A DNA stretch of 64,000 nucleotides from Lytechinus pictus (taxonomy: Eukaryota): positions 21,702,001-21,766,000 of the forward strand of contig NC_087245.1 of NCBI RefSeq assembly GCF_037042905.1, in the 5' to 3' direction. Positions 13,795-46,863 of this stretch are shown in pieces; positions within the stretch are counted from its first letter, which is position 1; each line of letters begins with the position of its first letter. The translations under genes were made by a program, and so were the position numbers. The notes beneath the pieces are model-generated. The model was not told the origin of the DNA and made no database searches. It was given only the letters and a program-made list of their open reading frames with translations.

Positions 13795-14568
13795 CTGCAA
13801 ACAAGAATAGAATATCAAATATCGACATCATGCAATGTGGTTATATACACAATTATATCCCATACTGAGAATTTGTTGCTATTTGATTGATCGAGAGCCC
13901 TTCTTGTGACTAATCATAATTTCACCAGAAAAATGAAATTCATCGGAGATCAAAATATTTTAGTTCATCGATATTATTGATGATTGATAGTGAAGTGATG
14001 ATTAGGGTCGATATAACTCTGGAACTCTGATCACACACCCTCTTGTGTTTCTGGCGCATCCAATGATAATAGAAAAATGTAACCCGGGTACCAATAGTTA
14101 ACAAATGTGTTTATTTTTTGCTTTAAAATAAATCCTTTTATCACTATTTTTTTTCCTTACAGGATTGAGGCAGATCAGATGCAGAGATGTCCGGGAATGT
14201 CAATAACTGACTAGTGGACAGATGACAAAATTATGTTGTTTGACTTCTGTTACGATTATAACAAGTTAGGCCAATTCCCGTGTAACAGTCTATTACCACC
14301 TCAAATTTAGGGGGGACCTGTCCCCCCGTCCCCGCTTCCGCAGCCTATGCCGCAGTTCTAAGTACATGTAGTTTCTGCAGCTCCAATGCTGCATTATGAG
14401 GAGTTTATTATGCCTATATCAGCTATACCAGTCGGGCACCTTCTATGATTGAGCCATTTTGCTCCATTATTTTTACACCGAACACAAATAACTTTCATGA
14501 GTGAGATCGCTTTATTAATTTTTTCAAGTATAGGGGTTCAATGTAAATGATAGCTACATTGTTTCTCC

Positions 14569-22022: not shown

Positions 22023-22203
22023 ATGATTAGAAAGGTGGGCATGGAAGAATCGATGGATACTTCAAGGTTGGGCACGTCAGAAGCTCATCTCGAACAGTTC
22101 GCCAAGGCCAAGAGACAGCAACGATTAATCTATGATGATACCGGTCATCTCATTACGAGAATAAAAGCCGAGCTGGAAGAATTGAAACCCGAACATGACG
22201 TAG
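22023..22203 (+). CDS. Mitofusin-like exon 1
   Basis: First in-frame ATG after TGA at 22017 (alternative ATG 22041). HLEQFAKAKRQQRLIY resembles mitofusin PLKHFVTAKKKINGIF. Donor G|GTGAGC, phase 1. Confidence 0.8.
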
Positions 22204-28200: not shown

Positions 28201-31200
28201 GCATATGATATATCCACGAATTAAACATGGCTGTTCTAGATTTGGTAAATGGGTATTGATCAATGACTTTATTATTTCCATTTCTTATGAAGACATAGAC
28301 CCATCATCGTTGTTAGAGAAGATGAAACTTCTTGAGGGGAGAATCGAGAGCCTCACGAGTGACTTGCTTAGAAAAAAAATGAAAGTAGCGTTCTTTGGAG
28401 GGTGAGTACAGTGTAATTCTTTTAAAAGGATGGTCCGGGCTGAAAGTATTTATAGCTTAATAAATAGAGTACAATTCACTGAGCAAAATGCCAAAAATTT
28501 CATCAAAATCGGATAAAAAATAACAAAGTTATTGAATTTTAAAGTTTAGCAATATTTGGTGAAAACAGTCGTCATGAATATTCATTAGGTGGGCTGATGA
28601 TATCAAATCCCCACTTTTTCTTTTGTATTTTATTATATGAAATTAGGTTTGTTCAAAATTTTCCCTCCAAGAACTAGAAAAATTGGATTGACAACTGATT
28701 TAGTGCATTAGATATTTATTGCTGCAACTTATTTCATTATAAGGGAAACATATTATTCACACAAGTATGAAATGATGAAAACATTATGATTTTATGTTAT
28801 AACATAAGAAAACGGAAGTGAAGATCTAACATCATAAGCCCACCTAATGAATATTCATGACGAATGTTTTCACAAAATATTGCTAAACTTTAAACTTCAA
28901 TAACTTTATTATTCGTTATCCGATTTTGGTGAAATGTTCGGCATTTTGCTCAGTGAATTCTACTCTACATGCTCTATGTATTAAGATATAAATATTTCCA
29001 GCCCGGATCATCCCTTTAAATTACTGCCATTAACGTGATTAATGATTAAAGTTAAGTACAATGTAACAGATTGAATAAAATCCGACAAATTTCGTCACCC
29101 CCATGATAGAGTAGTGCTTTGTTTAAATACCATTCCCTGATCAAATATTGTTTTATACTTTGTCTTCTTAAGTTATTTTTGTTATCCAAACAGAACCAGT
29201 AGCGGGAAGACAACTACCCTGAATGCTATGATTGGCCGAGAACTTCTCCCATCGGGAATGGGCGATACGACAAGCTGCTTCATTCAGATCGAAAAGATGG
29301 GCATTGTTTCTGAGAGTAAAGACGCCTCATGTCCTGAAGAACAAAATCATTTCGTCAGCAACTGCAGCACAAACTCAATGGACAATGAAAATGACGACAT
29401 CCCACGAACGCCTTCCTATTTTGTTGTTAGAGAAGTCGAGAGTAGGGAGAAAGAGGCGTCTCTCCATTCGTTCCTAGAAGACAAACAGCCTCTCGATTCA
29501 GAGGTTTGTTAAAAGCCAAAATCGACCAAAGAATAATCTGAAAGTAATAACAGAGAACCCAGGCAGTAAAAATCCATAATCAAACTTGAACGGAAAATGC
29601 GTTAATGCCCTGTGTTCAATGATGAGTCGCTGGTGTTATAACCGCAAATTTTACTTTTCATTTAATATTTTTTATTGTTCAGCACTTGGCATGAAATGAC
29701 AATTCCTTTCCCATTTTCCCATTTGAGGATATATAAATGGTACAAATCTTTACTTTATGTGTAAGATAATTAATGATTCCGTATATTCATTGTGAACTAT
29801 AGGCCTTGGAAGATCTGTGTGACGCCAAGTCGATTCGCTCTTTGGATGCGACCTACCTCATAGAAATACACTTGTCAGATGACGAAGTGACAAACGACCA
29901 TCTTCTGAATTATGACCTTCAGATCATGGATTGGTATGGTTCATTCTCTTTCATAAAACAAAATTCAAGGGGTTTAGAACTGGAACTCAAAAGTGTGTAA
30001 CAAGAAATTTTCGTCATTGTATAGATAATGTTATGATTTCTTCATATTTATTATTTATTCACTGAAAGCAATGGTCATTAATTGGTCATTGATGATTATT
30101 TCATTTCTGTATAATATTGTTTATATATATACTTTCGACAGAACTCTCATGTTAAGCAGATCGATATGGATTGAATTACACCTTCCAAATAAGTATAAAT
30201 AGATATTCTACTGGTATTTCATTCATTCCACCCTGATGGCCATCAATAATGATTTGAAAGAAATAGTCTTAAATTCGATATTTCATGGTTATTTTTCCAA
30301 ACGTATAAAAAATGCGTTTATTTCATATTTAGACTAAAATTCGTTTTACCCGGTTCTATTTTACATGCATATACGCGTAAATCTAGCCCAGGTATCACGA
30401 AATGTCGAGAGCTCGGTGACAGGGTGAAAACCTTCTGTGCAGACTCAGATGTCCATGTCTTTATTGTGAATCCCAAGACTGTCATGTCACCGGAAGTATG
30501 TTTACAATCATAAGTCTTTATTCTTCATTTTTTTAAAGAAAATGAATTATTTGTTGTAATATAAAGGAATAGCACACGTATAAGGATTTCTGAAAGCAAA
30601 GACTTTCAAAAAGTACGTTTACGATTTTAAACAACAACGGGAGGAAAATTTCTAATTTGTTGATTCATTTGGACTGTTATTTTGTGTATATTTCAACTTT
30701 GAAAATGGAAAAGATATGAGAAGAATGTGCAAGTTTTGTTTTCACTTGTTCTAGTAACCAATCAAGAGATACAAAATTTCAAATCATAATGTGCATTATT
30801 GACAGTTGTCATACCGGGATGAAAAATTTTCAGTTGTCTTTTTTTCACAGGAACGGGATCATTTTGTTGAAGTAGGCAAGCGTCTTCCTAAGCCTGACAT
30901 CATTGTAGGTTACACTCAGTGGGACTTAGCAGCGAGAGAAAGACGCCCTGAAGAGGTAAACAGAGTTTCGTATAATCAAAAGAATCTTATAAAAATAATG
31001 CGGAGGGGGGGGGGGGGGCATGGCCCTTGGAAGAATTTTCGGGGGGGGGGGTGCTGCGTGTATTATTCTCCATAGGCAGCACCCCCAGGTATTCTGAAAG
31101 ATGTGTAAAAATGGAAAAAAAATGTAACCAAAATTACCTACATTTTGTAATGAAACTCTCTTTTTTTTTGCTCTTCAAATTTACATCAGCACCCCAGTAA

Positions 31201-34200
31201 GAAAATCGTTCCCAGGGCCCCGGGGGGGGGGGGTGCAATAAGTATAGATTCATTAGCTTTATTGTAGATTCATTATCTTTTTGATAAATTCATTGATCCA
31301 TTTAATTTTGGTTAATATTACTTCTTCTTTTTTTTTTTTTTGGGGGGGGGGGGGACGTTATTTTAAAAAAATGGAACGAATTCGAGAGGGCCACCGATTG
31401 AGAATGTAAATATCGATAGGTCTATGTACTTTCGAAATTGTGATGATGTCCCCCAAAGTAAAAGTAGGAACGGGGATAATTTCATTAGTCATCCGTTAAG
31501 TTTTGTTTATGCAGGTAAAAGCTCGACACGTCGACTCAGTGTTTGAGATGCTGAAAAAACTCGATGTCGTAAGTACGAGAGAAGAAGCACAGGAAAGATG
31601 CTTCTTTTATTCTGGTAGAGAAGCTTTGGATTTGGCTATTGGCGAGAAAGGTTAGTGGGTGAAAATATTCGGGTCAATTGTCAGTTATGTTACCCAAAAA
31701 ACCCAAAGTCCTTACAAAATCTGATGACAAATTCGGGGTTTCTGTATTAACTGTCTTTCATCTATTTACCCATTGGCATCATGCACATGGCTGTAATAGG
31801 GGGAAGGAGGCAGTGGGATGGGGCAGTTTCCGTCCACGTTATACTAAAAAAAAAGCTTCATGTGAATCGATTTTCCTTTACAAAAAGAGTTAAGAAATAA
31901 TATTTAAAAAGTTAAGTGAATATTCAGAATCCTTCCCTTGCAACACTAAAATGAAAACACGCCTTTTGATCAACTTTTTCGCTTTGCTCCATCACATGCG
32001 AACGCTTTAAGTAAAATTTACCCCTCCCTGGAATATTTTATTCTGATTGTTGATGACTTTAGTTAAAATGATGAAGTGTTGATAGGTTCGAAAGGCCTCG
32101 TGCAGTTGTACCTTGTAGCATGATAATAATCCAAAATGAGGACATCCCCTCTATTGAAAACAGCAACGCTTTATACCTGATTGCATGATAATGAAATTAT
32201 TAACTAGGAACTAATTACAACTGACTGTTTGCATGGTTTATAAGTATGATAAAATTATCTGATAAAACATAATTATTTCTTTGTGCCCTCCATTCTTTTT
32301 TATTTGGGGGATACACTCGATTTTTTAAAGTCAGTTTCCTTGTTACTTCGTTTTCAAATTGTCTCTCTATTCCTCCAGGGTATTTTGTCAAAGATTGGGA
32401 AAAGCGAAGAGAAGATTTTAGGAGGTTCATTTCGAAAATAGAGGTATGTTGCCCCGTTGCATAAAAGTTACACCTGTAACTTCAGCATTCAATGGCAGCA
32501 ATGCTTAATATGCTTTTCACATTGCATTTCCTTAACCCCATACTATCCTTAACCCCGGACTATCCTTAACCCCATACTATCTTTTTTGGATTCACATTGT
32601 CTTTCTTAACCCCATACTATCTGCTTCAGTTAACCGGGGTTAACGCCTTAACCCCAGACTATCCCACAGCTCATGAATATTGATGATTTTACCATACAGA
32701 GTGCGATTAACGTGCAATTTCGACTTCTGTGATTGGCTATTGCTTAGCCCCACTTTTCCTTAGCCCAGTTTCGTTTCACACTGCATGTCTTAGCACCGCA
32801 ATTGTGGTGCTAGCACCACAAAAGTATGCTTTTCACACTGTATTTTTTCCCTTAACCCCGGGAAATTAATGGGGCTAAGGGGGGCCTTAGCCCCACCAAT
32901 TTCCCGGGGTTAAGCTTAGCCCACTTCGTTTTCACACTACGTTTTAGCAAAGTGGGCTAGCACGGTAAATAGTACGGTACTATCTGGCCCTGCAAAAAAG
33001 CCGGGTTAGCCGGCTTATTGTGGTGCTAGCACCACAATTGCGGTGGTAAGAGATGCAGTGTGAAATGAAACTGGGCTAAGGAAAGGTGAGGCTAAGCAAT
33101 AGCCAATCACAGAAGTCGAAATTGCACGTTAATCGCACTCTGTATAGTAGAATAATCAATATTCATGAGCTGTGTGATAGCCCGGGGTTAAGGCATAAAC
33201 CCCGGCTAATCAAATAGTAAAAAAACCATGGGGTTAAGAAAGACAGTGTGAATCGAAAAAAAAAAGATAGTATGGGGTTAAGGATAGTCCGGGGTTAAGG
33301 ATAGTATGGGGTTAAGGAAATGCAATGTGAAAACCCTGCTTTTTTGCAGGGCCAGAAAGTACCGTACTATTTACCGTGCTAGCCCACTTTGCTAAAACGT
33401 ATAATGTGAAACCGAAGTGGGCTAAGCTTAACCCCGGGAAATTGGTGGGGCTTAGGCCCCCCTTAGCCCCATTAATTTCCCGGGGTGCAGTGTGAAAAGC
33501 ATATCATTGGTTTTATTATATGCTTTTCACACTGTACTTTTTTCCCTTAACCCCGGGAAATTAATGGGGCTAAGGGGGGCCTTAGCCCCACCAACTTCGT
33601 TTTCACACTATGTTTTAGCAAAGTGGTCTATCACGGTAAATAGTACGGTACTATCTAGCCCTGCAAAAAAGCAGGGTTAGCCGGCTTATTGTGGTGCTAG
33701 CACCACAATTGCGGTGCTAAGAGATGCAGTGTGAAACGAAACATGGCTAAGGAAAAGTGGGGCTAAGCATTAGCAAATCACAGAAGTCGAAATTGCACGT
33801 TAATCGCACTCTGTATGGTAAAATCATCAATTTTCATGAGCTGTGTGATAGCCCGGGGTTAAGGCGTTATTAAACCCCGGCTAAGCAAATAATTTGGGGT
33901 TAAGAAAGACAGTGTGAATCGAAAAAAAAGATAGTCCGGGGTTAAGGATAGTATGGGGTTAAGGAATTACAGTGTGAAAAGCATGTGAGTCAGTCAATGG
34001 AAGTTACCACTGGATGGCAAAGTTACCACTTGTATGCAATGACGATCAAAAGAACAGTAAATATTGTGTGTTCTTCTGTCAAATTGATGAAAAATATATG
34101 AATAGATATAAGTAAAGATATGACTGGAGTTAATACCTAAATAGTTTTAATAGATATACATTGCAAATGTTCTTATATAGACTGGATGCCTGGATGGGAT

Positions 34201-37200
34201 GCAAGTCATTGCCTATCAAGGAAGCTATTTGGTATGATGCAATAAATTATTTGATAACACACTGATAATAATGTTCAAACAATCAAAATTCAATCATCGT
34301 TTATTATCACATGTATTTGTTTAACTAATATAACCGATTGATACGAATCAATCCAATTTCGGTATTATCCGTAGCAAAATTACATGCTAATTTGACTTCG
34401 ATCAAATAATGATAATATTGACTATAAACATTTGCAATAATGAAAAGGCCGCATTATTCTAGTTATGCTGAGTGTTAGAAAATAATTCTGTATATTTTTT
34501 CATTTATATTTTGTTTCAAGTTAAACCTTTTCTCAAAGCACATCATTTTTTAATTTAAAGGAGAGAGCCACCTCTTCTGGTATGACTACCAAATTGAAAG
34601 TCAATCGAGACACATGCCAAGAGGTCTTACTGCAGTGCTTCAAAAGCCTTGAAGAAGTTATTGCAGAGGTCCAGAAACAGATGTAAGATATATTTATTTT
34701 TAAAGATAGATTTAAATTCGTATAGTCTTATTAACTATTGTGTTTGTGTATTTGGGGGAAATCTCTTTTTTTATGTTCTTTTGTGAATATTTCACACTCA
34801 AAAAGAGTTTTGAGTATGTTGATATATATGTGTAGAGTATACACTTAGTACACATTATTTTCTTTAAGAAAGTACAAGATAATGTGACATGGAGTTTCAA
34901 AGTAACGCACGATGATATAATACTAGGCCAATACATGCGTATTTAAAAAGAAAATAAATAGTAAATTATAAAAAATGATATTTTGTTAGTGTTTCCCAAA
35001 AATATAATAGTGTTAAGTATAAAAGTTGTCAATGTATTTATTTGTAAAGAGATTATATATTATTTGCTATATTATGTATCTTATTTTCTTTATGCCAAAA
35101 ATTTAAGTAAATAAAAAGCCACTAAATACAGACAAATTAAAAACAAAATGAAGACAGATGGTGGTAGTAGAGGCAGATCTAGGGGATCGTTAGTAGAAAA
35201 ATAGGAAGATGGGATCAGCTCCAACACCCAAGGCGCCTTGTTCCCTGTTGACGAGAGTTCGTTGTAGCTCATCTATTGTAGGTCCATGGTCAAACCAATT
35301 GGTCGAACCCGATTAGCAAAAAGCTAGATCAGCAACTGACATGACTGGGTAGGGGATATACTTGTAAGGGAGGAGGATGGAATGAATTTGGGGGTCTAGG
35401 TAAGGAGGAGGAGGGGAGGATCATAGTCCATCAGGGATAGATGGATGCATCATATATGATTTACAACTTAAGGAGTAATCAGATGTTTAAGGTTTTGTAC
35501 TTGATCTTTCCAGGTCAGATGGCAAAGAAAACATGGACAATATGACGAAGAGTCTGGAATTATTTCAGATAAAACGAGCCGAGTTTGTAAAGGAAAGCGA
35601 GGAAAAGAAAAGGAAAGCTTTGAATGTGATCTCTGAATCGGTACGATTCTTCAGCTAAATATGATTCAAGTTTCCTTTACTTTGAGATGTACATGATATT
35701 GGGTAAAATGCTCCATGAGGGTAATTTTGTGTCTAACCAACATTGGACATTTCTTTTGGGTATTATTATTCATCCAGTGTGATGAAAATTTTGCCCATTC
35801 TAAAGTAATTGATGCTTGTTTTTTTCAACCTTACTGGACAATATGCTTCCCGCATTGGGTAAAATACTGCCCCACATTGATTGGACACATAATTACCCTC
35901 GTGCTGGTTAAAATTTTACCCAATATTTTTTATAGTGTATTGGGGTAAATACAAGACGATAATTAAAAATATTTTAGATTTACAAAGCAGCTTGTCAATT
36001 CTGTTTTCTGATCAACCACATCAGATAGTAATTAACATAAAGGAATCCCTAAAAAATTGATTACACATTTATATTCTTATTGCGTGTTTTTTTTTTTTTT
36101 TTTTTTTTTTTTTTGGGGGGGGGGTATGACAAGCTTAAAATGAAAAGGAAAACAAAAGTTATAGAAATGAGGACCGTCGGTGTCAGAGAAGCATTGGGAG
36201 AGTTTTTTACAATATTCATGGGCGCAATGTGCCCAAATTTTTCATTGCCTAGATATGGTGGATGAAGCAAAATTACCAAAAACATATCAGCGAAGCGAGG
36301 GAGCACAAAATATGACCTTTTGAATAATTAAGAAACATATATAATACTTCACTCTTTCCCTTTCCTTTCCTTCTTGCTTTCTTGGACGTGAAACTTTTGG
36401 GGTCTACGGCCCGAAAGCCCCCCCCCCTTCTTATACGAATTAAGTTTGATTCTTATAACATTTTGTGATCGTAGGTATTGCACTGTATGAATGAAGTGAG
36501 TAAGAAAATGACCCAGACCTTGAAAAGGAGCTCCGTGATCAACAGATTTGAGGAAGATCAGGTTCATAGATACGCCGAGGTGAGTACAATCTGTATATAT
36601 ATAGCTTTGTAAAAAAAAACGGTTGAACTAATAATAGCCAAAAATGTTAATAAGGACAGTAACTTCAAAAGGTCAACTTTAAAGATGGTAGATATAATGT
36701 ACTTAGAAAATGTATCCTCGTCGTTTGTGCAATATGAGGAAGAACTACACCATGGAAATGTAAAATAGACAACAGTTGCCAAAAATAATATATATAGTAG
36801 TAGTAACATGAGCACTATGGTACAAGATGAAAAGATCTAGAGAGTGAAAGAGCGTTTTTCATTGATTGGAATTGTAGTCGAAGAAAAAAATAATAAAACG
36901 TTGTTTATCCCTTTTTTAAAAGGGGCAGATAACTATGATAACAATGACATTTTTCATACATAAAAAGGGACATTCTTAGTACTTGAAAAATGTTTGTCAT
37001 GGGAGAGACAGAGAGGGAGTGATCGGGAGCTCTGATTTTTTCACGTAAAATTCTGTCTTTTTCTTTTAAAATAGAACGCCCTCATGGATTGGTATCGCAA
37101 GATGTTGGCTGAGTTTCAGCGCGCTACGGAAAAGGTCTGTGATGACTACTCCTTTGGTATCCTTGGTGAGTGAATAGTTTGGGAGCCATTTCTGTCCTCT

Positions 37201-40200
37201 GATGTTGTAGGCCTATCGATTTTATTGGCGATATAAAACTAAAAGTTTTTTCCATAAATAGAATTTGATATATTTGTTTCGCGATTTTTTTTTTTCTAGT
37301 TTTATATGGCCAATAAAATCGATAAGCCTACAACACCAGAGGACAGCAAATTACCAAAATCTAATTATCCATGATTGAATTCCTTACATAATGTATATGA
37401 AACAGTGTAATATGTCTGTGAGTAGAATGGGTTAATGATCTCCGTTATATTTAAACCTCTTTCAAAACACACACCAACAATTTCAAGCACGTCACGTGTA
37501 TTGTGGTCTGAAACATATTGGGAAGTATGTACCCTACTAAAGTGAAATTTGCTTTTAAGTTTAGTAACATGACGAAGACAAGACATTTCTTTCTAAAAGT
37601 AATATTTCCGGCAGGAAAGTATAGTGGATAATGCACTTGCTAATACTTATGACTCTTTAAGGCATTTTAGACAAAGAGAGGGGCCAATTTAAAGATATAA
37701 ACGGTAAATACTAGTATTACACAACTATATCTCTACACAGAATCGTATGAAAACCACATGAAAGACTTCCCTCATCAAGCACCGAGGGCATTTCAAATCC
37801 GTATGAAACAGATTGAAGAAGAAGCCGAGGTTCCAGAGGCTGCGATCCAGAGGGTCCTTACAGGAATCACCGAGAGAGCTGTATGGTCATCGTTTGCTTC
37901 AAGACGCAGACGGATCAGCGCAGGTATTTTTTTTACTTTTTTTTAAATAATGCATATAGCATTTCCATTTTATTTGAAAGCAGGATAAAAGAGCATTGTA
38001 CATTAAATGCTTGCTCACGGGCATAGATGACGCGGCCGGGGATCGAACCCCGGACTTTCTATGTATAGCCAGGCGCCTTAGACCACTCGGCCAAGGCACC
38101 TCCACACATAATTATCAATCGTCTTTGCGACGCTAACGATACTGGAAATCATGATCGGAAGTTGTTTTTAGCCATAAAACAATTTAGTTCACGAAAATAT
38201 TGTTGCTCGACTGTAGCCTAAAGAGTTGCACTTTCACTTTAAATCGAGAATAAAAAAATAGGCCTAAACGCAAAACCGGTAATTTTCCATAATGTGTCTT
38301 ATTGTGGTCTTATGATAATGCAAGCAAAGATTTTAATCCTCAATAATGAAAGGGGAGTTACATAAATTCTTCCATAATGCTACTGTCTGTCATAATGCGG
38401 CTGTCTGTTTCTCGAGCTTCAAACTGATGCCATGTTCGGCTCGTCTATGAAAGGAATTAAACAAACACCATCGTCAATGTCATTATGTTGATTACCGATC
38501 ACACTTTTTATTGAAATTGCATTATTTCAATTTGATCAAAATATTCCCCATTCTGATTATTCATTTGTATATCCAACCACATTAAGACAAAACTATTCCA
38601 CGCCCCGCCCCCGCATGAAAAATACTTCCGCTTTAATACCATTATTGTGATAACTTTGATATATTTATCATTATCTAAAGATAAATTCATTGGTGGATGA
38701 TGATCATATTAGCACGCTTAGCTTTTAAAGGTCGAGTCCACCCCAGAAAAAAATGTTGAATTGAATCAATTTTAGAGAAAAATCAAACAAGCATGAACCT
38801 GAAAATTTCATCAAAATCGGATGTAAAATAACAAAGTTATGACATTTCAAAATTTCGCTTATTTTTCACAAAACAATCATATCCACCATTCAGTGACATG
38901 CTAATGAGAGAGTCGATGATACCAATCACTCACTATTTCTTTCGTTTTTTCATTATTTGAATTATACATTATTTCAATTTTTACTGATTTGACATTAGGG
39001 ACCAACTGTGCTGAACCATAAAATGTTATAACAACGGTATACCCCATGTTCAGGGAGGAATGAAACTTGGTTTCACAGGATAATGAGAAGAAAATTAGAA
39101 TATTATTTTCATAATTCATGTAATAAAATACAAAAGAAATAGTGAGTTGGTGATGCCATCAGTCCCCTCATTTGCATTGCATACAGACTGTTTTGTGAAA
39201 TTATAAGCAAACATTAAAAATGTCATAACTTTCTTATTTTACATCCAAATTTGATGACAATTTTAGTGTTATGCTGTTGGATTTTTCTGTTTTTATTGAA
39301 ATCAATTTTTATTGGGTGGACTTGCCCTTTAAGTGCTTTCTTAATTCTCAATTTTTATCACAGTCGAAACCGATGAAGAACGTAATATTTTACTGCGCAG
39401 AATCGCGGCGGCAGCAGGAGTGTTTTTCACTCAGGTTCGACAGTGGATCAGAGCCTCTATTGAAAGTCAATTGGAGAATCTTACGTCATCACAACAAAAT
39501 TCTCTCATTTGTCTCGAAGACGTGAAGAACCGATGCTACGAGGCTGTGGAAGCGTGAGTTTTGTGGCTTTTTTTGTTCTAACCCTTAAGATTAAGAAGTG
39601 GGTTCAAGCAAGGAGATATCACTCTAATCTCCTTGGTTCAAGTGTATTCGATACTATGTTTTAAAAGGGCGTGTTAGCGAAATTGGGAGCTTGATAAATA
39701 CGCACTTTCTCTTTCTCAATTTTCACTCTTTCTTTCAAGAGTCTTGAGTTTAAATAGTTTCAATAAACTTTCTACAGTGCGTCCCACAAAAAACGAAACG
39801 GAGATTTATCGATGATTTATCATAACTTAATCACAAATACAATAGACAAATGACCTACCATTGTTAAGCTTAAAATTAGCTTATTTCTCATTCACGCATG
39901 AGTGAGCAAAAACAATTTGAAAAGGGGATACCAACAAGTCACTTGGCGGGCTGTATCTGGGTTTCAAAAAGAAAACCACATTTTTAAAAAGTTCAATATC
40001 TGCTCTTTAATTTGATACATCAATTAAAGAAAATGGTCAAGAAAAAAGAAAGTTCTGGTTATTTGAAACAAGGCTTGATTTTCAATAATTTCATGAAATG
40101 AAGAGCGTTCAAACTCACTCAACACTCCGTTTTGTTGACGATCAGCCATGTTACCGTGCGATAGCTTCTGTGGGAAACCGGTGAAAACACGTTTATTTAA

Positions 40201-43200
40201 TGAAATTATGGAAATACAAGCATTGTTTCGAGGGATCATAACTTTTTTACCTCTTGACCATTTTCTGTGGTTAAGGTATCAAATAAAAGAGCAGATATTG
40301 AACTTTTTAGTCATGTGACTTTCTTTTTGAAATTCAGATACCCCCCGCCAAATGAGTTTTTGGCGTCCTTTCTTCGAATTGTTTTTGCTCGCTCATGCGT
40401 GAATGACGATGAAAGAGGAGATTCTAAGCTTTACGTTGGTGGGTCATTTGTCTATTGTATTTATGATTAAGTTATGATAAATCATCGCTAAATCTCGGTT
40501 TCGTTTTTTGTGGGACGCATTGTATAACGCATACACGCACGCACACATGCGCAAAAAAAAAAATGGGAAGGCTTCAAAAGTGTTATTTGATAGCTTGTGC
40601 AATTGCTTGACATACAAAACAAACAACTGACTCTTTCAAAACACCGAAGACATTTTTGTTTAATTCTTGGCGCGATAAAAGTCAAATTTATCATTATTAT
40701 CATTATTATTATTATTATCATTATTAAACTAATATGAATATGCCATGTGTTAAGTGATGATGTCGAGACGTTTCTCGAATCCACATAACAATGTCCGCAC
40801 AGGAATAGCTACAAAACCGACTCCAAAACGATGGTTAAATTATTGGTCAGTTTGGAGTCCGGGACCGGAACATAATAAATGGAGATGGAGCAAGAGCAAA
40901 CACAATCCCCGATTGCCTATAGGTCTTATTAGGAAAGATGCCCTTGTTATGATAATCACTTTTCGCTCCATCTTGGACTGGTAATGTGAGCAGAAGATAG
41001 TTCTTACCTTTTCGGGGGCATGCAAAAAAAGTGTGCAACATTTCCTGAAATATGATTAAAATCTATACTCGACTGTGCATGTACATGCACTAATCTGGCA
41101 TATGAAATAATGAACAACAATATTCCCACAACCGTATTTTCAATTTTTCTTTGTCGGTAACAATCGGGAAAGTGTCAAAATCTTTTTTCACTAAGACCAA
41201 ATTCTTACATTTTGATGGCAAACGCATCAAATTCTCATCATTGCTGTCATTGATTTTTTCCCTTAGATTTTGCAACAGTGCCGATGTGTATTACACTGAG
41301 TGTTGTACACGTGATGTGGAGCAAGGGTTGAAAGTCCAGCTCGCAACGCAAGAAAGGAAAAATGAACAGATGAAACTTCTTTCAAAACACATGACGAATC
41401 TCAAGTAAGAATTGATGCAATGCGTCTCAAATGGGTACTCCGGGCTGAAAATAACTATATCTAAATAAAGAGAGTGAAATTCACCGAGAAAAATGCTTCA
41501 AATTTCATCAGAATCTGAGAAGTAACGATGTTATTGAATTTCAAAGTTTAGTTTTTTTTTTTTTTGGGGGGGGGGGGTGTAAAATGTGCACGTCGTCATG
41601 CACATTCATTACGAGGACTAAGCAGTGAATTTGAGTTTATGAATGGCGCGGGCTAAAATAGCCCCTCCCTCGCGCCATTTTGGTGCTGCTTTTATCAGCA
41701 CCAGACCAGCCCCATCGTAAAAGTAGCGCGGATCTGCTACAGTTACTTCCGCTTGTGGTGCGGACTATTTTAGTGCGGGCCTGGTGCGGACCAAAGAAAA
41801 ATGAGTTACTGAAAACGGTATTATACGATTACGGTATACAATATTTTGGTGGTTGGATGGAGGCCAAGTTCTTGTGAAGCCAGGAACACTCTTTTCACAA
41901 AACGAAAAAAATGTAGCTTTAAATTTAGACATGAACATTCCAACCTGCACACTCTTGATAATCATTGTTCCGAATAGTAGTATGATTGTCTGAATTAAAA
42001 TTCCAGGCTATTACAAGCCTCCCTGTATGAATCAAGTAGTAGTGACGTCATAGCATTTTCGCAATCAGCTGGTATTTGAAGCCGATTTGGACTTCCCCAA
42101 CCACGACTTGCAATAAAGCAAAAAATTATTTTACTATTCATATTTCAAACTTGAAAGATGGTATTTGTACTTTTTTGAACTTTTATATTCCATGCAAAAC
42201 TTATGCAATTTGTTTAAAGATTTGGTCGTCGTCGGACTACTCATGTAGTGAGCTGAATAGGCCTTTCGTACTTTCGAAGACGATGTTGTCTTTCTTCATT
42301 GCTTTTAATCCACATTCAACGTTTAATTCTTCTGTTATTATTATGTCAGTGTTGAATCTTTCCTTTGATTCACGGGCGTAAATCCGGGGGGGGGGGGGTT
42401 ATATGTACAATCATCCCACCCCCCTACTTTTCAAGACAGAAACTAACTAAACTAAATCATCAAATGATTAATACTACTGTTGATGCGTGGATTCATCTTT
42501 AAATGCGATCAAGGTGCCCAATCTGCCCAATTTCGAGTTTTAAAAAGCAAAATTTCTCGCGCGGTCGCTCTGCTCCCGCCCTCAATCAAATCTTACAAGA
42601 TTTTGGCCCTGACAAAATCCCTACGTTTAGCTTCTTGCCAATGTTATATCCCCTGCATCATTAGAATATACATACGTCCACTTATGAATTGTATGATACA
42701 AAATACTTTTAAATATGGTTATGTATTTGATCACAAAACAATCAAAACATCCTTTAAATACACGGGCGTGAATGGGGTGGGGGGGGGGGGTCATATCATT
42801 GCATCTCCGTAGAAGCGGGAGACAATTTGTACAATAAATTTATGCATACTCTGTACTTCAAGTTAAGTGTACGATGAGTGACTGACCGATGACTGATCAA
42901 ATCAATATGCCGTTAATGAAACACAGGCAAGTTAGGAATAACAATGCACGCACTTTACAATTCTATCGTTTATAGGAGACTTTAAATCTCAATGATCCCC
43001 TAACAATCTAATAGATATTTCAAATATGAATTTTGTTCAAAATTTTGAATATTTTGCATATCATCTCCCAATATAATCTTAAACATTATTCAAAATCTTT
43101 CTTTTCTGCAATATTTTTCTTTTAATTTGCATGCTTATGCTATTTCCAACTTTTTGGAAGTTGTGGCCTTTGATGCCTATTATGATATAGCATCTGGTTA

Positions 43201-46200: not shown

Positions 46201-46863
46201 TAAGTAATCATAAAATAAGATGCGTATGTCACTACATGAAATAATAAACGCTCAAAGCGAGAGGGAAAAAATATTGTCAACATTTCTCTCTTTTTCTTTT
46301 CCCGCTATGTCTCTCTTTTCCCCTCTTTCTCTTCTTTCTCCTCGTTTTTTAAGCAGCTGGTGGGGGGAGGGGGGGGGGTGCCCCCTACCGAAGTTACGCC
46401 TTCCTGTTTTTTCTTTGTTCTTTTTTTTCTTCTCTTTTTCTTGGTCGTGGAATCTTAAGGGCCTGAGCTCCCAAAGCCAACTCCCATTTGTACTCTTGGG
46501 ATAACAGGTAGAAAATAGTACATATTTTCGAAGACAATTTCGTCTTTGAAATACATTACTTTTAAATCCAATTTATACCTTTTATGAATAATATGGTTTC
46601 TTAAACTTTACAATTTACATCTTGGTACAAGGAATTTTTTTTAAAAACATCATTATGAGTATCAATCATCAGCATGATCAGTGAGTTTCCTTTTGCTAGT
46701 AATACTTCAGTCACAGTCAGTGTTCACTTTCACCACTGTTTCTTTTTGGGGGGTCATTTCTATTTCTACTTTCAGGGAAGAGGCAGGTCATATCCGTGGC
46801 AGATACAACATGGACGACAAAGAACCAATCGACAGTGATGGTATTCGAGAAGACTCCAGATGA
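22023..46863 (+). CDS. Divergent mitofusin/fzo-family dynamin-like GTPase, 16 coding exons, about 729 aa, apparently lacking the transmembrane hairpin
   Basis: Hand-spliced GT-AG exons: 22023-22203, 28293-28401, 29194-29503, 29803-29933, 30387-30495, 30851-30955, 31515-31650, 32379-32443, 34561-34682, 35514-35640, 36475-36579, 37075-37165, 37741-37923, 39364-39553, 41267-41404, 46776-46863. Total 2190 nt, all phases compatible, no internal stop. Motifs MKVAFFGGTSSGKT (G1), LPSGMGDTTSCF (G2), DCPG (G3), TQWD (G4) and CFFYSGREAL resemble mitofusin MKVAFFGRTSNGKS, LPSGIGHTTNCF, DSPG, NRWD and [10 protein letters not shown]. Confidence 0.88.
23273..24164. mobile_element. Tc1/mariner-type MITE
   Basis: TA|CAGTGCGTAT...ATACGCACTG|TA. 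Confidence 0.7.
24275..24545. mobile_element. hAT-like MITE
   Basis: CAGTGACGTA...TACGCCACTA with exact 8-bp TSD TGCTGGCC; related inverted copy at about 26628-26890. Confidence 0.8.
25125..25478. mobile_element. Old MITE with about 60-bp inverted arms
   Basis: ATGAAATTCATCACAACAC...CTTGTTTGACAT versus ATGTCAAACAAG...GTGTTGTGATGAATTTCAT. Confidence 0.6.
26400..27117 (+). mobile_element. Degenerate Helentron/HINE-like element interrupted by a hAT-like MITE
   Basis: AGGTCAAAGGTCA repeats; 3' end ATGCAGGTG..GCCAGAGGCGTCCCCTTGTT resembles the end of the 59261-60244 element. Confidence 0.55.
28293..28401 (+). CDS. Mitofusin-like exon 2
   Basis: Ends LLRKKMKVAFFG(G); donor GG|GTGAGT, phase 2. 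Confidence 0.9.
28426..29015. mobile_element. Kolobok-like MITE (TTAA TSD) with long inverted arms
   Basis: TTAA|AAGGATGGTCCGGGCTGAAA...TTCCAGCCCGGATCATCCCT|TTAA. Confidence 0.85.
29194..29503 (+). CDS. Mitofusin-like exon 3 (P-loop, switch I, long insertion)
   Basis: CAG acceptor; TSSGKTTTLNAMIGRELLPSGMGDTTSCFIQIE...; donor GAG|GTTTGT. Confidence 0.9.
29803..29933 (+). CDS. Mitofusin-like exon 4
   Basis: ALEDLCDA...LLNYDLQIMD(C), like LLKDDLVLMDS; donor TG|GTATGG, phase 2. Confidence 0.88.
30387..30495 (+). CDS. Mitofusin-like exon 5
   Basis: PGITKCRELGDRVKTFCADSDVHVFIVNPKTVMSPE, like [36 protein letters not shown]; 109 nt. Confidence 0.88.
30851..30955 (+). CDS. Mitofusin-like exon 6 (G4 motif)
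   Basis: ERDHFVEVGKRLPKPDIIVGYTQWD, like [25 protein letters not shown]. Confidence 0.9.
31515..31650 (+). CDS. Mitofusin-like exon 7
   Basis: VKARHVDSVFEMLKKLDVVSTREEAQERCFFYSGREAL, like [38 protein letters not shown]. Confidence 0.9.
32379..32443 (+). CDS. Mitofusin-like exon 8
   Basis: GYFVKDWEKRREDFRRFISKIE; CAG acceptor, GTATGT donor, phase 1 to 0. Confidence 0.85.
32508..33985. mobile_element. Cluster of four full or partial copies of one MITE (TIR TGCTTTTCACAC) in alternating orientation
   Basis: Inverted partial about 32508-32822, forward about 32825-33333, inverted partial about 33334-33503, forward about 33519-33984. Confidence 0.85.
34561..34682 (+). CDS. Mitofusin-like exon 9
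   Basis: ERATSSGMTTKL..., like ECISQSAVKTKF; 122 nt, donor AT|GTAAGA, phase 2. Confidence 0.82.
35514..35640 (+). CDS. Mitofusin-like exon 10 (HR1-like coiled coil)
   Basis: 127 nt, phase 2 to 0, charged helical sequence MSDGKENMDNMTKSLELFQIKRAEFVKESEEKKRKALNVISES. Confidence 0.8.
36475..36579 (+). CDS. Mitofusin-like exon 11
   Basis: 105 nt, phase 0 to 0, VLHCMNEVSKKM...VHRYAE; donor GAG|GTGAGT. Confidence 0.8.
37075..37165 (+). CDS. Mitofusin-like exon 12
   Basis: NALMDWYRKMLAEFQRATEKVCDDYSFGIL; donor G|GTGAGT, phase 1. Confidence 0.78.
37741..37923 (+). CDS. Mitofusin-like exon 13
   Basis: CAG acceptor, open frame ESYENHMKDFPHQAPRAF...RRRRISA; donor CAG|GTATTT, phase 1. Confidence 0.72.
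37945..38103 (-). mobile_element. tRNA-derived SINE (5' part)
   Basis: Minus strand has A box TGGCCGAGTGGTCTAAGG and B box GGTTCGATCCC, then a CORE-like ATGCCCGTGAGCAAGCATT; no complete cloverleaf. Confidence 0.75.
38729..39328. mobile_element. Kolobok-like MITE (TTAA TSD)
   Basis: TTAA|AGGTCGAGTCCACCC...GGGTGGACTTGCCCT|TTAA; same family as 20570-21135. Confidence 0.82.
39364..39553 (+). CDS. Mitofusin-like exon 14 (vestigial hydrophobic segment)
   Basis: VETDEERNILLRRIAAAAGVFFTQVRQWIRASIESQLENL...RCYEAVEA; donor GC|GTGAGT, phase 2. Confidence 0.72.
39775..40522. mobile_element. Tc1/mariner-type MITE with long TIRs
   Basis: TA|CAGTGCGTCCCACAAAAAACGAAAC...GTTTCGTTTTTTGTGGGACGCATTG|TA. Confidence 0.88.
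41267..41404 (+). CDS. Mitofusin-like exon 15 (HR2-like coiled coil)
   Basis: Strong TAG acceptor; FCNSADVYYTECCTRDVEQGLKVQLATQERKNEQMKLLSKHMTNL(K); donor AA|GTAAGA, phase 2. Confidence 0.78.
45779..46185 (+). mobile_element. Full-length tRNA-headed SINE with Nin/Deu-like central domain
   Basis: A box TGGCTCAGTCGG, B box GGTTCGAGTCC, CCCTCGGATAGGACGTTAAA...GCACGTTAAGAACCCACTGCAC core, (AAT)n tail. Confidence 0.85.
46776..46863 (+). CDS. Mitofusin-like terminal exon 16
   Basis: Pyrimidine-rich CAG acceptor, phase-compatible; EEAGHIRGRYNM lines up with mitofusin NKAGWLDSELNM; TGA at 46861. Confidence 0.7.

What the first reader, a model, noticed from the sequence alone, without database searches (positions are those of the whole stretch)
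22023..46863. Intact but highly divergent mitofusin paralog that appears to have lost its membrane anchor
Seen: 16 GT-AG exons join into a 2190-nt stop-free ORF with a mitofusin-type GTPase domain and helical regions, and no hydrophobic stretch long enough to span a membrane. Knowledge (recalled): human MFN2 coding-exon phases run 1,2,0,2,0,0,1,0,2,0,0,1,0,0,2,2 and include exons of 109, 122, 127 and 105 nt. This gene reproduces those phases and those four lengths. The exception is that the three MFN2 exons covering the TM region (about 574 nt) correspond to only two exons here (183+190 nt, about 67 aa shorter). Only LRRIAAAAGVFF remains as a possible echo of WRLIALSFGLYG. Inference: an intron-preserving duplicate has become a soluble or peripheral dynamin-like GTPase. 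It could regulate mitochondrial fusion, act in the germline, or serve as an immune GTPase by analogy to Mx/GBP and bacterial DLPs. The ORF stayed intact despite heavy intronic TE traffic, which suggests purifying selection.
Basis: partly seen in the sequence, partly recalled or inferred. Interest (0 to 1): 0.88.

Follow-up and report, generated by a model that had tools for sequence, protein, structure and literature searches.

The report
Anchor-less mitofusin paralog of sea urchins
This is a real, intact sea-urchin gene, one of a small urchin-only family copied long ago from the mitochondrial fusion protein mitofusin, that has lost the membrane anchor and changed three key catalytic-interface residues, so it probably no longer fuses membranes and may regulate instead.

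Summary
Sixteen GT-AG exons (22023-46863, + strand) splice into a 2190-nt ORF of 729 aa. The product is letter-for-letter RefSeq XP_063954105.1, "mitofusin-2-like [Lytechinus pictus]", so the gene is annotated but I found no study of it. The same genome has a canonical, anchored mitofusin on another chromosome. Nine introns share alignment column and phase with it. The three canonical exons around the membrane hairpin (550 nt) are two exons here (373 nt). No hairpin-sized hydrophobic stretch exists, Pfam's Fzo_mitofusin domain is undetectable, and no hidden anchor exon lies in the introns.

New here: it is one of at least three anchor-less paralogs in this genome. The family was found only in echinoids (Lytechinus, Strongylocentrotus, Diadema). 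GTP-binding motifs are kept, but the residues matching MFN1 H107, E209 and R238 are D, K and Q.

Most likely it is a soluble or peripheral GTP-binding regulator, not a fusogen. Kind: new variant of a known kind. Interest about 0.5.

The parts
22023..22203 (+). Exon 1 (181 nt, aa 1-61), start codon at 22023; N-terminal helices
   Evidence: identical to P0161
28293..28401 (+). Exon 2 (109 nt); ends inside the P-loop (G1)
   Evidence: intron 2 has the same column and phase as the canonical gene
29194..29503 (+). Exon 3 (310 nt): rest of G1 (GGTSSGKT, G1 spans 28394-29212), switch I GMGDTTS at 29255-29275 with D121 in place of the mitofusin His, then a 69-aa acidic insert (29297-29503)
   Evidence: insert has pLDDT 40-65
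29803..29933 (+). Exon 4 (131 nt); ends in G3 (DCPG, split over exons 4 and 5)
30387..30495 (+). Exon 5 (109 nt, same length as canonical exon 5); K274 at 30475-30477 in place of the interface Glu
30851..30955 (+). Exon 6 (105 nt); G4 motif TQWD at 30914-30925 (Q303 in place of the interface Arg)
31515..31650 (+). Exon 7 (136 nt); end of the GTPase domain (G5 region)
32379..32443 (+). Exon 8 (65 nt, same length as canonical exon 8); acceptor 32379 chosen over 32394
   Evidence: 32379 reproduces P0161
34561..34682 (+). Exon 9 (122 nt, same length as canonical exon 9); helical bundle
35514..35640 (+). Exon 10 (127 nt, same length as canonical exon 10); helical bundle
36475..36579 (+). Exon 11 (105 nt, same length as canonical exon 11); helical bundle
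37075..37165 (+). Exon 12 (91 nt)
37741..37923 (+). Exon 13 (183 nt); ends in the conserved polybasic stretch SSFASRRRRISA (from 37887)
39364..39553 (+). Exon 14 (190 nt); ETDEERN...AAAAGVFF...VRQWIR helix (39366-39464), the conserved remnant where the second hairpin helix lies in canonical mitofusin
41267..41404 (+). Exon 15 (138 nt); part of the long C-terminal helix; skipped in L. variegatus isoform X2
46776..46863 (+). Exon 16 (88 nt including the TGA stop at 46861-46863)
37924..39363 (+). Intron 13 (1440 nt, phase 1), the only intron with no canonical counterpart. It holds MITE-like repeats, and an out-of-frame hydrophobic ORF at 39227-39331 that is repeat-derived and not an exon

Best explanation
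The locus is a real, intact protein-coding gene of a Lytechinus-type sea urchin. It arose by DNA-level duplication of the animal mitofusin gene. It belongs to an old family, found here only in echinoids, whose members have all lost the outer-membrane hairpin. The protein keeps the mitofusin/BDLP-like build: a dynamin-type GTPase domain, two helical bundles and a long C-terminal helix. The residues that bind GTP are kept. The three residues that canonical mitofusins need for GTPase-domain dimerisation and dimer-stimulated hydrolysis (MFN1 H107, E209 and R238) are replaced by D121, K274 and Q303, and these replacements are conserved in the family. A conserved polybasic Ser-containing stretch followed by an amphipathic Ala-rich helix sits where the hairpin was. 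Inferred mechanism: a cytosolic or peripherally membrane-bound GTP-binding protein that cannot act as a fusogen by itself. It would work as a regulator or adaptor, for example by engaging or capping membrane-anchored partners, with a rewired GTPase interface of its own. What is shown: the gene model, descent from mitofusin, the missing anchor, the motif changes, conservation and the fast rate. What is inferred: solubility, altered hydrolysis and a regulatory role. My odds are about 0.9 for the identity and architecture and about 0.3 for the regulatory mechanism.
For: Gene model: 16 exons, all introns GT-AG, 2190 nt. The product is identical to RefSeq P0161.

Descent: Dynamin_N scores 60.3 bits. 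The best solved relatives by sequence are MFN2 and MFN1 (7 distinct PDB sequences, best E 9.5e-36). The AlphaFold model (pLDDT 78.4, pTM 0.66) matches MFN2/MFN1 first (E about 1e-20, TM by target 0.77-0.81) and then BDLP. Introns 2-10 coincide in alignment column and phase with the canonical gene of the same genome (9 of 9), introns 1, 11 and 12 agree in phase and lie nearby, intron 15 falls in the same column and phase as canonical intron 16, and intron 14 has the phase of canonical intron 15 and lies 7 columns of the 44-row alignment from it (one column off in the pairwise print).

No anchor: the highest hydropathy over 19 residues is 0.85. Over 45 residues, all 9 full-length family proteins score 0.15-0.38, against 0.49-1.95 for 59 other full-length hits. 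Fzo_mitofusin is absent at E<=1 in 5 of 5 family proteins tested, while canonical P0028 scores 205 bits. No remnant of the hairpin exon lies in introns 12-14 (best tblastn E 1.1). A 1133-nt public contig (P0014) carries an uninterrupted ORF across the equivalents of exons 13-16 of the sister paralog. Given the kb-scale introns, that contig must be a spliced copy, and it has no extra exon.

GTPase: K102, T103, T122, T123, D243, G246, W304 and D305 are kept. Among rows with a residue at each site, the A/B/Diadema-type proteins have D at the His site in 15 of 15, K at the Glu site in 16 of 16, and Q at the Arg site in 14 of 16 (H in 2). The 36 non-family rows have H in 31, E in 33 and R in 32. 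The mapping onto MFN2 H128/E230/R259 comes from the alignment. Passages of PMC9568670 state that H107A binds GTP but does not hydrolyse or dimerise, and that the E209-R238 salt bridge stabilises the G-G interface.

Constraint: 221 of 729 columns are invariant across Lytechinus A, Lytechinus B, Strongylocentrotus B and two Diadema proteins, concentrated in the G domain and in the hairpin-replacement motif. Between paralogs A and B, pS is 0.79 (saturated) and pN 0.26, with pN 0.05-0.10 in the G domain.

Functional analogy: in PMC9568670, section 12, an engineered cytosolic Mfn1 (F646D) reduced trans-tethering by anchored mitofusin.
Against: There is no RNA evidence for this gene.

No dedicated TM predictor was available. 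The canonical mitofusin hairpin is itself only moderately hydrophobic (19-residue maximum 1.64 in urchin), so the 19-residue scale alone discriminates weakly.

The hairpin-replacement region is modelled with low confidence (pLDDT 48-64), so peripheral membrane binding is a guess. Its hydrophobic moment of 0.51 is high for this protein but not extreme (mean 0.26, sd 0.13, maximum 0.59).

The D/K/Q changes remove the very contacts a decoy would use to pair with canonical mitofusin. That weakens the 'competitor of mitofusin' version of the regulatory idea.

The family evolves about 11 times faster than canonical mitofusin (Diadema-Lytechinus path 1.21 versus 0.105 substitutions per site), and the helical-bundle region is only 88-90% identical between two congeners. 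This pattern fits an arms-race function as well as a housekeeping regulator. No ortholog dN/dS could be computed, because I had no L. variegatus DNA.
Confidence: 0.6

Rival explanations
1. A fast-evolving defence or conflict GTPase: a mitofusin-derived dynamin-like protein recruited to innate immunity or another genetic conflict, by analogy with Mx, GBP and bacterial DLPs. It would act in the cytosol or on pathogen or organelle membranes.
For: The family is lineage-restricted, with tandem and dispersed copies on one chromosome. Its stem branch is 2.48 substitutions per site and its rate is about 11 times that of canonical mitofusin. Between two congeners the helical bundles are 88-90% identical while the G core is 100% identical. 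The insert in the G domain is variable.
Against: There are no expression or induction data. No immune-type domains were found. Mx appears only at rank 40 of the fold search, as a generic dynamin-fold match. Relaxed constraint after a change of function explains the fast rate equally well. No site-wise test of positive selection was possible.
Confidence: 0.15
2. A germline-specialised mitofusin paralog, comparable to Drosophila fzo. It would act during spermatogenesis or oogenesis on mitochondrial aggregation or inheritance, without being a membrane fusogen itself.
For: There is precedent for tissue-specific mitofusin duplicates. The best non-echinoid hits of the exhaustive search are Drosophila fzo proteins. 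Rapid evolution is common in reproductive genes (recalled).
Against: The fzo hits are most simply long-branch attraction: about 30% identity, G domain only. Fzo keeps its hairpin, with a 19-residue hydropathy of 1.85 in P0015. No tissue data exist.
Confidence: 0.1
3. The annotated model is incomplete. The true mRNA contains an unannotated hydrophobic exon or an alternative 3' end, so the protein is membrane-anchored after all.
For: Intron 13 has no canonical counterpart. Hydrophobic ORFs exist in introns 13 and 14. I obtained no reads for this gene.
Against: The hydrophobic ORFs are out of frame or belong to repeats. tblastn with the canonical hairpin region finds nothing better than E 1.1. 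Independent RefSeq models in L. pictus, L. variegatus and two Diadema species join the same way. The junction sequence ...RRR[IL]xS|VETD... is conserved across the family. The P0014 contig crosses the same junction without an insert.
Confidence: 0.04
4. A decaying duplicate: an unexpressed or functionless copy that still happens to be open.
For: It evolves fast and catalytic-interface residues are lost. No RNA evidence was obtained.
Against: The gene has 16 exons with 30 intact splice-site dinucleotides and no stop in 2190 nt. Intact homologs exist in Diadema, Strongylocentrotus and Lytechinus. The substituted residues D, K and Q are themselves conserved. Between paralogs pN is far below the saturated pS. 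The G core is 46 of 46 identical to the L. variegatus ortholog.
Confidence: 0.03

Closest known systems
Canonical animal mitofusin (human MFN1/MFN2; the same genome's canonical gene on contig C2, 741 aa; Diadema P0028)
   Same: It shares the dynamin-type G domain with the mitofusin-specific Trp in G4 and the BDLP-like helical bundles. MFN2 and MFN1 are the best sequence and fold matches. Nine introns are in identical position and phase, and five exons have identical length.
   Different: There is no membrane hairpin and no detectable Fzo_mitofusin domain. Two exons stand where canonical mitofusin has three. A 49-aa longer exon 3 adds an insert to the G domain. The residues matching H107, E209 and R238 are D, K and Q, and GRTSNGKS has become GGTSSGKT. 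Identity is only about 20% over the whole protein. The rate is about 11 times faster.
Drosophila Fzo (testis-specific mitofusin paralog, beside the general Marf)
   Same: It is a lineage-specific, fast-evolving second mitofusin gene. Fzo proteins are the best non-echinoid hits in the exhaustive search.
   Different: Fzo keeps the hairpin (19-residue hydropathy 1.85 in P0015) and the His in switch I (GHTT). It is a fusogen (recalled knowledge).
Nostoc BDLP and other bacterial dynamin-like proteins (PDB 2j68/2j69, IniA, DynA-type)
   Same: The whole-length architecture is the same: G domain, neck and trunk helical bundles. BDLP is the first full-length structural match (E 8e-16). BDLP binds membranes with a paddle rather than a true TM span (recalled), which is the nearest model for peripheral binding.
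   Different: Identity is 12-13%. The paddle-equivalent region here is short, charged and modelled with low confidence. This gene descends from eukaryotic mitofusin, as its introns show.
Engineered cytosolic mitofusin Mfn1-F646D (PMC9568670, passages of section 12 read)
   Same: It is a mitofusin that stays mainly in the cytosol. In that paper it lowered mitochondrial clustering caused by anchored mitofusin, and the authors read this as blocking trans complexes. It is the nearest tested analogue of a natural anchor-less mitofusin.
   Different: It is a point mutant with a wild-type G interface. The urchin protein has lost the E209-R238 pair and H107, so pairing with canonical mitofusin is doubtful.
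Truncated Mfn2 lacking the TM domains and C-terminus (Segales et al. 2013; only the title was seen, in a reference list)
   Same: It is an anchor-less mitofusin form reported to have cellular activity (from the title only).
   Different: It is an artificial truncation that also lacks the C-terminal helix. The urchin protein keeps a long C-terminal helix (residues 642-715, pLDDT about 90).

Membership tests
Mitofusin / Fzo family (dynamin superfamily) | Dynamin-type GTPase domain with intact nucleotide-binding motifs (G1 Lys and Ser/Thr, G2 Thr, G3 DxxG, G4 Asp) | tested here: met
   Dynamin_N scores 60.3 bits against a cut-off of 27. K102, T103, T122/T123, D243, G246 and D305 are conserved in all family rows that have these residues.
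Mitofusin / Fzo family (dynamin superfamily) | Mitofusin-type G4 motif N-R-W-D with the characteristic Trp | tested here: inconclusive
   W304 and D305 are kept, but the motif reads TQWD: N is replaced by T and R by Q.
Mitofusin / Fzo family (dynamin superfamily) | C-terminal Fzo_mitofusin domain (PF04799: hairpin plus HR2) | tested here: not met
   There is no hit at E<=1 in 5 of 5 family proteins, while canonical P0028 scores 205 bits. In the own genome the only PF04799 match is on contig C2.
Mitofusin / Fzo family (dynamin superfamily) | Membrane hairpin anchoring the protein in the outer mitochondrial membrane | tested here: not met
   The 19-residue hydropathy maximum is 0.85. The 45-residue maximum is 0.35, against 0.49-1.95 in 59 other full-length hits. 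No hidden exon was found. No dedicated TM predictor was available.
Mitofusin / Fzo family (dynamin superfamily) | G-G interface and catalytic residues (MFN1 H107, E209, R238) | tested here: not met
   The matching residues are D121, K274 and Q303 (alignment with MFN2 H128/E230/R259). Their roles come from passages of PMC9568670.
Mitofusin / Fzo family (dynamin superfamily) | Descent from the animal mitofusin gene (shared intron positions and phases) | tested here: met
   Introns 2-10 match exactly, 9 of 9. Introns 1, 11 and 12 match in phase and lie nearby, intron 15 matches canonical intron 16 in column and phase, and intron 14 has the phase of canonical intron 15, 7 columns of the 44-row alignment away.
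Mitofusin / Fzo family (dynamin superfamily) | BDLP-like fold with two helical bundles | tested here: met
   The model has pLDDT 78.4. Foldseek puts MFN2/MFN1 first (TM by target 0.77-0.81), then BDLP at E 8e-16.
Mitofusin / Fzo family (dynamin superfamily) | Mitochondrial outer-membrane location and fusion activity | not testable with these tools
   This needs localisation and fusion assays.
Interferon-type or defence dynamin-like GTPases (Mx, GBP) | Mx- or GBP-type domain organisation, and induction by infection | tested here: not met
   No Mx or GBP family appears in Pfam. MxB is only at rank 40 of the fold search (E 1.5e-7, TM 0.24-0.29), behind 14 mitofusin rows and BDLP. Induction was not testable.

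The most novel reading that the evidence does not exclude
Echinoids have kept, probably for more than 200 million years (divergence date recalled), a family of natural anchor-less mitofusins. In these proteins the catalytic His and the trans salt-bridge pair have been co-replaced by D, K and Q, creating a new, self-specific GTPase interface. These proteins would form a soluble GTP-gated switch that docks on organelle membranes through the conserved polybasic, phosphorylatable motif and the amphipathic helix. The switch would control mitochondrial tethering or fusion, or a defence reaction, in eggs, sperm or coelomocytes. That would be a third mode of mitofusin action besides fusion and ER-mitochondria tethering.
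Probability: 0.2. Interest if true: 0.75.

Novelty: new variant of a known kind. Interest (0 to 1): 0.5.

Why it matters
Mitofusins are defined by their membrane anchor, and all models of outer-membrane fusion and tethering assume it. A conserved natural family without the anchor, and with the three best-studied G-interface residues changed together, is a ready-made evolutionary experiment on two questions. What can the mitofusin scaffold do off the membrane? How much of the G-G interface is needed for a useful GTPase? Lytechinus pictus is a laboratory species in which mRNA injection and gene knock-out are practicable (recalled), so localisation and loss-of-function tests are straightforward. 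If the proteins prove to modulate canonical mitofusin, they would be the first natural soluble regulators derived from the fusogen itself. If they are conflict genes, they would add a mitofusin-derived branch to the defence dynamins.

Tried and rejected
I used the genome search and fetched stretches instead.

2. RNA evidence. The look-up of sequencing runs listed no holder on record as RNA. Nothing was laid, so I make no statement on expression from reads.

3. Complex prediction on two copies of the G domain (residues 62-372) returned no verdict: score 0.00 against a mark of 0.32, controls not run. I use it neither for nor against dimerisation.

4. A word-based search with the C-terminal part (residues 540-715) returned only the protein's own cluster, 1 of 588 candidates. 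It was not informative on distribution.

5. The careful tree did not finish in time, so the quick tree is reported. The position of the family relative to other animal mitofusins is not resolved, because long branches meet. The AU test does not reject an echinoid-internal origin (p 0.338) but does not show it either.

6. dN/dS between paralogs A and B cannot be quantified because pS is at or above 0.75 in most regions. Only residues 201-365 gave a number, 0.067. Ortholog dN/dS was not possible without L. variegatus DNA.

7. Three non-family hits without the Fzo_mitofusin domain (P0037, P0052, P0090) looked like further anchor-less forms. They are truncated canonical models that end at or before the hairpin.

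8. The hydrophobic ORF at 39227-39331 just upstream of exon 14 is rejected as an exon. It is in the wrong frame and lies in an inverted-repeat element.

9. The ESM Atlas search with the C-terminal half gave only bacterial helical-domain clusters, including a BDLP helical-domain family at rank 17. That fits the fold and adds nothing new.

10. NCBIfam gave only sub-threshold dynamin-like hits.

11. Earlier findings of this scan: nothing near the place or like the sequence, and the word search gave only unrelated genomes.

12. Literature. Searches for mitofusin with 'sea urchin' (66 papers, 20 listed) and with 'echinoderm' (23 papers, 10 listed) showed no title or abstract start about urchin mitofusin genes. 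A search for six accession and LOC identifiers of family members found 0 papers. A phrase search for anchor-less mitofusins (74 papers, 15 listed) found only engineered forms. These searches cover the held library only.

Full report
WHAT IS THERE

The window is low-GC animal DNA with many repeats. Open frames on the + strand between 22 and 47 kb carry recognisable GTPase pieces. The largest one hits Pfam Dynamin_N (E 6.5e-09). A search with that exon, allowing longer proteins, found 6 proteins at E<=0.001 among 62 candidates. All named ones are from sea urchins, and the best was L. variegatus "transmembrane GTPase fzo-like isoform X1" (P0001, 94% identical). tblastn of P0001 against the window gave 16 ordered + strand matches.

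Splice-site refinement produced 16 exons with GT-AG at all 15 introns. They total 2190 nt and encode 729 aa. For exon 8 two acceptors scored almost equally. Acceptor 32379 has the better polypyrimidine tract and is the one that reproduces the database protein. The translation is identical over 729 residues to P0161, which is XP_063954105.1, "mitofusin-2-like [Lytechinus pictus]". That record sits on a 44,300,000-base contig, the same length as the window's contig C1. The gene is already in RefSeq under an automatic name.

THE REST OF THE GENOME

A six-frame search of the window's own assembly (812 Mb) with P0001 gave 30 matches. They fall into four groups.
- The gene itself.
- A tandem paralog 70-95 kb upstream on the same strand (C1:21.627-21.655 Mb).
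- A third, more diverged copy at C1:42.478-42.499 Mb.
- A weak match on contig C2.

The Pfam Fzo_mitofusin model has a single match in the genome, on C2 (115.7 bits). I modelled that gene using a Diadema canonical mitofusin (P0028) as guide. It has 17 coding exons, encodes 741 aa, shares 653 identities over 741 aligned positions with P0028, and has a clear hairpin region.

The tandem paralog (B) has the same 16-exon layout. It matches the L. pictus RefSeq protein P0003 with 704 identities, 3 mismatches and 10 gap positions, the gap coming from one boundary that my script set differently. I did not model the third copy (C) fully. Its exon-sized frames show a P-loop, a switch I with GHTT, an FTQWD motif and the same anchor-less remnant of the hairpin region.

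DESCENT FROM MITOFUSIN

I placed the canonical C2 protein into a 44-sequence alignment (A1) and marked the introns.
- Introns 2-10 of the two genes fall in the same column with the same phase, 9 of 9.
- Introns 1, 11 and 12 have the same phase and lie nearby, in poorly alignable stretches.
- Intron 15 falls in the same column and phase as canonical intron 16. Intron 14 has the phase of canonical intron 15 and lies 7 columns of the 44-row alignment from it (one column off in the pairwise print).
- Exons 5, 8, 9, 10 and 11 have identical lengths in both genes (109, 65, 122, 127 and 105 nt).
- Canonical introns 13 and 14, both phase 0, flank a 132-nt exon that encodes the first hairpin helix. Here they are replaced by a single phase-1 intron with no counterpart.
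- The canonical 221+132+197 nt are 183+190 nt here.

By sequence, the only solved relatives are MFN2 and MFN1 (7 distinct PDB sequences, best E 9.5e-36). The AlphaFold model built on A1 has mean pLDDT 78.4 and pTM 0.66. It has low confidence at residues 1-19, 136-162 and roughly 540-640. Foldseek against the PDB ranks MFN2 and MFN1 constructs first (E about 1e-20, TM by target 0.77-0.81), then full-length BDLP (E 8e-16), IniA and Fzo1.

NO ANCHOR

The Kyte-Doolittle mean over 19 residues never exceeds 0.85 in this protein or 1.32 in any full-length family protein, the highest being Diadema P0008. The urchin canonical proteins reach only 1.64, so this scale alone is not decisive. Over a hairpin-sized window of 45 residues the separation is complete. 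Nine full-length family proteins score 0.15-0.38, and 59 other full-length hits score 0.49-1.95. That count excludes three truncated models, and P0011 is shorter than the 600-aa limit used.

Fzo_mitofusin is not detected at E<=1 in 5 of 5 family proteins, while canonical P0028 scores 205 bits. A permissive tblastn of the canonical hairpin region against 37001-41400 found nothing better than E 1.1. Hydrophobic frames do exist in introns 13 and 14. The notable one, 39227-39331, is in a different frame from exon 14. It belongs to an inverted-repeat element (38790-38862 against 39203-39275) whose relatives lie at 27402 and 28470.

Independent RefSeq models from L. variegatus, L. pictus and two Diadema species join the exons in the same way. 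A public 1133-nt contig (P0014) carries an uninterrupted 200-aa frame across the equivalents of exons 13-16 of paralog B. In this genome the introns between those exons are 0.65-2.3 kb. That contig is therefore a spliced copy, and it has no extra exon.

WHAT REPLACED THE ANCHOR

Across Lytechinus A and B, Strongylocentrotus B and two Diadema proteins, 221 of 729 columns are invariant. Outside the G domain, one of the best conserved blocks is the hairpin replacement. Its pattern is W-x-SFA-x-x-RR-...-ETD-x-ER-...-AA-...-VFF-x-x-VR-x-W-x-R-x-S-x-E. In this protein it reads SSFASRRRRISAVETDEERNILLRRIAAAAGVFFTQVRQWIRASIE, spanning exons 13 and 14. The Arg-Arg-x-Ser pattern resembles a basophilic-kinase site (recalled, not tested). 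The following helix has a hydrophobic moment of 0.51, against a protein-wide mean of 0.26, sd 0.13 and maximum 0.59. This fits either a bundle helix or a peripheral membrane-binding helix. The model is not confident there.

THE GTPASE IS NOT A PLAIN MITOFUSIN GTPASE

Nucleotide-binding residues are intact: K102, T103, T122, T123, D243, G246, W304 and D305. Four family-specific changes stand out.
- The P-loop reads GGTSSGKT where canonical proteins have GRTSNGKS.
- Switch I reads GDTT where canonical proteins have GHTT.
- NPK stands where canonical proteins have NAE.
- G4 reads TQWD where canonical proteins have NRWD.

In the alignment to the MFN2 chain 6jfk, an offset of 14 places H128, E230 and R259 on an H, an E and an R of the chain. 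These align with D121, K274 and Q303 of this protein. Passages of PMC9568670 state three relevant points. MFN1 H107 (MFN2 H128) is thought to compensate charge in the pocket. H107A binds GTP but does not hydrolyse it and does not dimerise with GDP-BeF3. The intermolecular salt bridge E209-R238 (MFN2 E230-R259) stabilises the G-G interface, and breaking it allows binding but blocks hydrolysis.

In the alignment with added fragments, counting only rows that have a residue at each site:
- The A/B/Diadema-type rows have D at the His site in 15 of 15.
- They have K at the Glu site in 16 of 16.
- They have Q at the Arg site in 14 of 16, with H in two short Diadema proteins.
- The 36 non-family rows have H in 31, E in 33 and R in 32.

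The C-type protein of S. purpuratus (P0011) has Q, E and K at these sites. The C copy of this genome keeps GHTT. The triple change therefore marks the A/B/Diadema branch and has been kept since. I infer that GTP binding is retained, and that canonical dimer-stimulated hydrolysis is lost or rebuilt on different contacts. This is inference, not measurement.

AGE, SPREAD AND RATE

The word-based search with the full protein found 7 proteins at E<=1e-5 among 8000 scored candidates, all echinoid. The exhaustive HMMER search of 1.84 billion representatives found 335 proteins at E<=0.001, 120 at E<=1e-10 and 18 at E<=1e-30. The eight best hits (P0003, P0008, P0005, P0004, P0011, P0012, P0013, P0014) are family members. 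The six that carry an organism name are from Lytechinus, Strongylocentrotus or Diadema; the records read for P0013 and P0014 give no organism. The next hits are Drosophila fzo proteins at about 30% identity over the G domain and the following helices. No non-echinoid member appeared among the 150 listed. Only some of those 150 have names, so this is not proof of absence.

I built a quick maximum-likelihood tree of 27 rows: 8 family proteins, the own and Diadema canonical proteins, and 17 other mitofusins picked from the full-length hits without a formal rule. P0010, P0160, P0007 and all fragments were left out. The tree shows:
- The family is one group (SH-aLRT 100) on a stem of 2.48 substitutions per site.
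- The C-type branches first, then Diadema, then the A/B split.
- The Diadema-Lytechinus path is 0.105 for canonical mitofusin and 1.21 for the family, about 11 times faster.
- Where the family attaches among animal mitofusins is unresolved, because long branches meet.

An AU test does not reject a tree uniting the family with echinoid canonical mitofusins (p 0.338).

Between paralogs A and B, synonymous differences are saturated (pS 0.79) while pN is 0.26. By region, pN is 0.047 in the G core, 0.10 in the rest of the G domain and 0.43 in the C-terminal part. Against the L. variegatus ortholog, identity is 46 of 46 in the G core, 159 of 165 in the rest of the G domain, and 158 of 175 in the helical-bundle region. 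The gene has therefore been under purifying selection, strongest on the GTPase, with fast-changing helical parts.

HOW IT MOST LIKELY WORKS

Without a hairpin the protein cannot be an integral outer-membrane fusogen. It keeps the whole soluble scaffold and the GTP pocket, a conserved basic and amphipathic element in place of the hairpin, and a changed G interface. The most economical reading is a cytosolic or peripheral GTP-binding regulator.

The one experimental analogue I found is an engineered, mainly cytosolic Mfn1 (F646D). It reduced the mitochondrial clustering caused by anchored mitofusin, and its authors read this as capping of trans complexes (PMC9568670, section 12 passages). Loss of the E209-R238 pair and of H107 argues against simple pairing with canonical mitofusin. 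I therefore give the 'decoy' form low odds, and I leave open a self-specific interface or a different partner.

The fast rate, the tandem copies and the restriction to one lineage keep a conflict or immune role alive. A germline role is possible, with no evidence here. I obtained no expression data.

COMPARISON AND NOVELTY

It works like, and descends from, mitofusin. It fails three defining features of the family that I could test: the hairpin, the Fzo_mitofusin domain and the interface residues. I file it as a mitofusin-derived, anchor-less variant rather than as a mitofusin in the functional sense.

My searches of the held library found no paper on it. Searches for mitofusin with 'sea urchin' or 'echinoderm' returned nothing relevant in the listings. 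Six accession and LOC identifiers returned 0 papers. Phrase searches for anchor-less mitofusins found engineered forms only. Papers outside that library, and supplements, were not seen.

VERDICT

- Observation: confirmed.
- Novelty: new variant of a known kind.
- Interest: about 0.5.

Noticed in passing
window 14155-14214 (+): An orphan copy of the last coding exon of the tandem paralog B. It ends ...IEADQMQRCPGMSITD and a stop, and is preceded by a pyrimidine-rich stretch. It lies about 8 kb upstream of this gene's start and about 60 kb downstream of B's own last exon (C1:21655263-21655314). It may be a relic of the duplication or an alternative 3' exon.
   Followed up: partly
own genome C1:42478403-42498615 (loci L036-L038): A third, more diverged anchor-less paralog. 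Unlike A and B it keeps the canonical Arg in the P-loop and GHTT in switch I, so it looks like an intermediate form. I did not model it fully, and several middle exons were not found.
   Followed up: partly
window 55297-55382 (+): A tRNA-Tyr (anticodon GTA) gene of 86 nt, which is long enough to hold an intron. It scores 53.7 bits with Rfam and is confirmed by ARAGORN.
   Followed up: partly
window 48525-49154 (+): A reverse-transcriptase fragment (Pfam RVT_1, 64 bits) of a retrotransposon just downstream of the gene.
   Followed up: partly
window 32514-33869 (intron 8), 27402-28967, 38773-39275, 39770-40527: Dense nested direct and inverted repeats (MITE-like elements, arms 60-275 nt, 72-100% alike) fill several introns. 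One arm produces the out-of-frame hydrophobic ORF just upstream of exon 14.
   Followed up: partly
P0160 (L. variegatus isoform X2) against exon 15, window 41267-41404: The L. variegatus RefSeq isoform X2 is 46 aa shorter and lacks exactly the exon 15 equivalent (138 nt, in frame). This would shorten the long C-terminal helix. I did not check whether the isoform exists in L. pictus.
   Followed up: no
window 56240-56809: A GC-richer stretch (0.45 in 56-58 kb) with a 179-aa open frame on the minus strand that ends in an acidic run. It has no Pfam match and may be the first exon of a neighbouring gene.
   Followed up: partly
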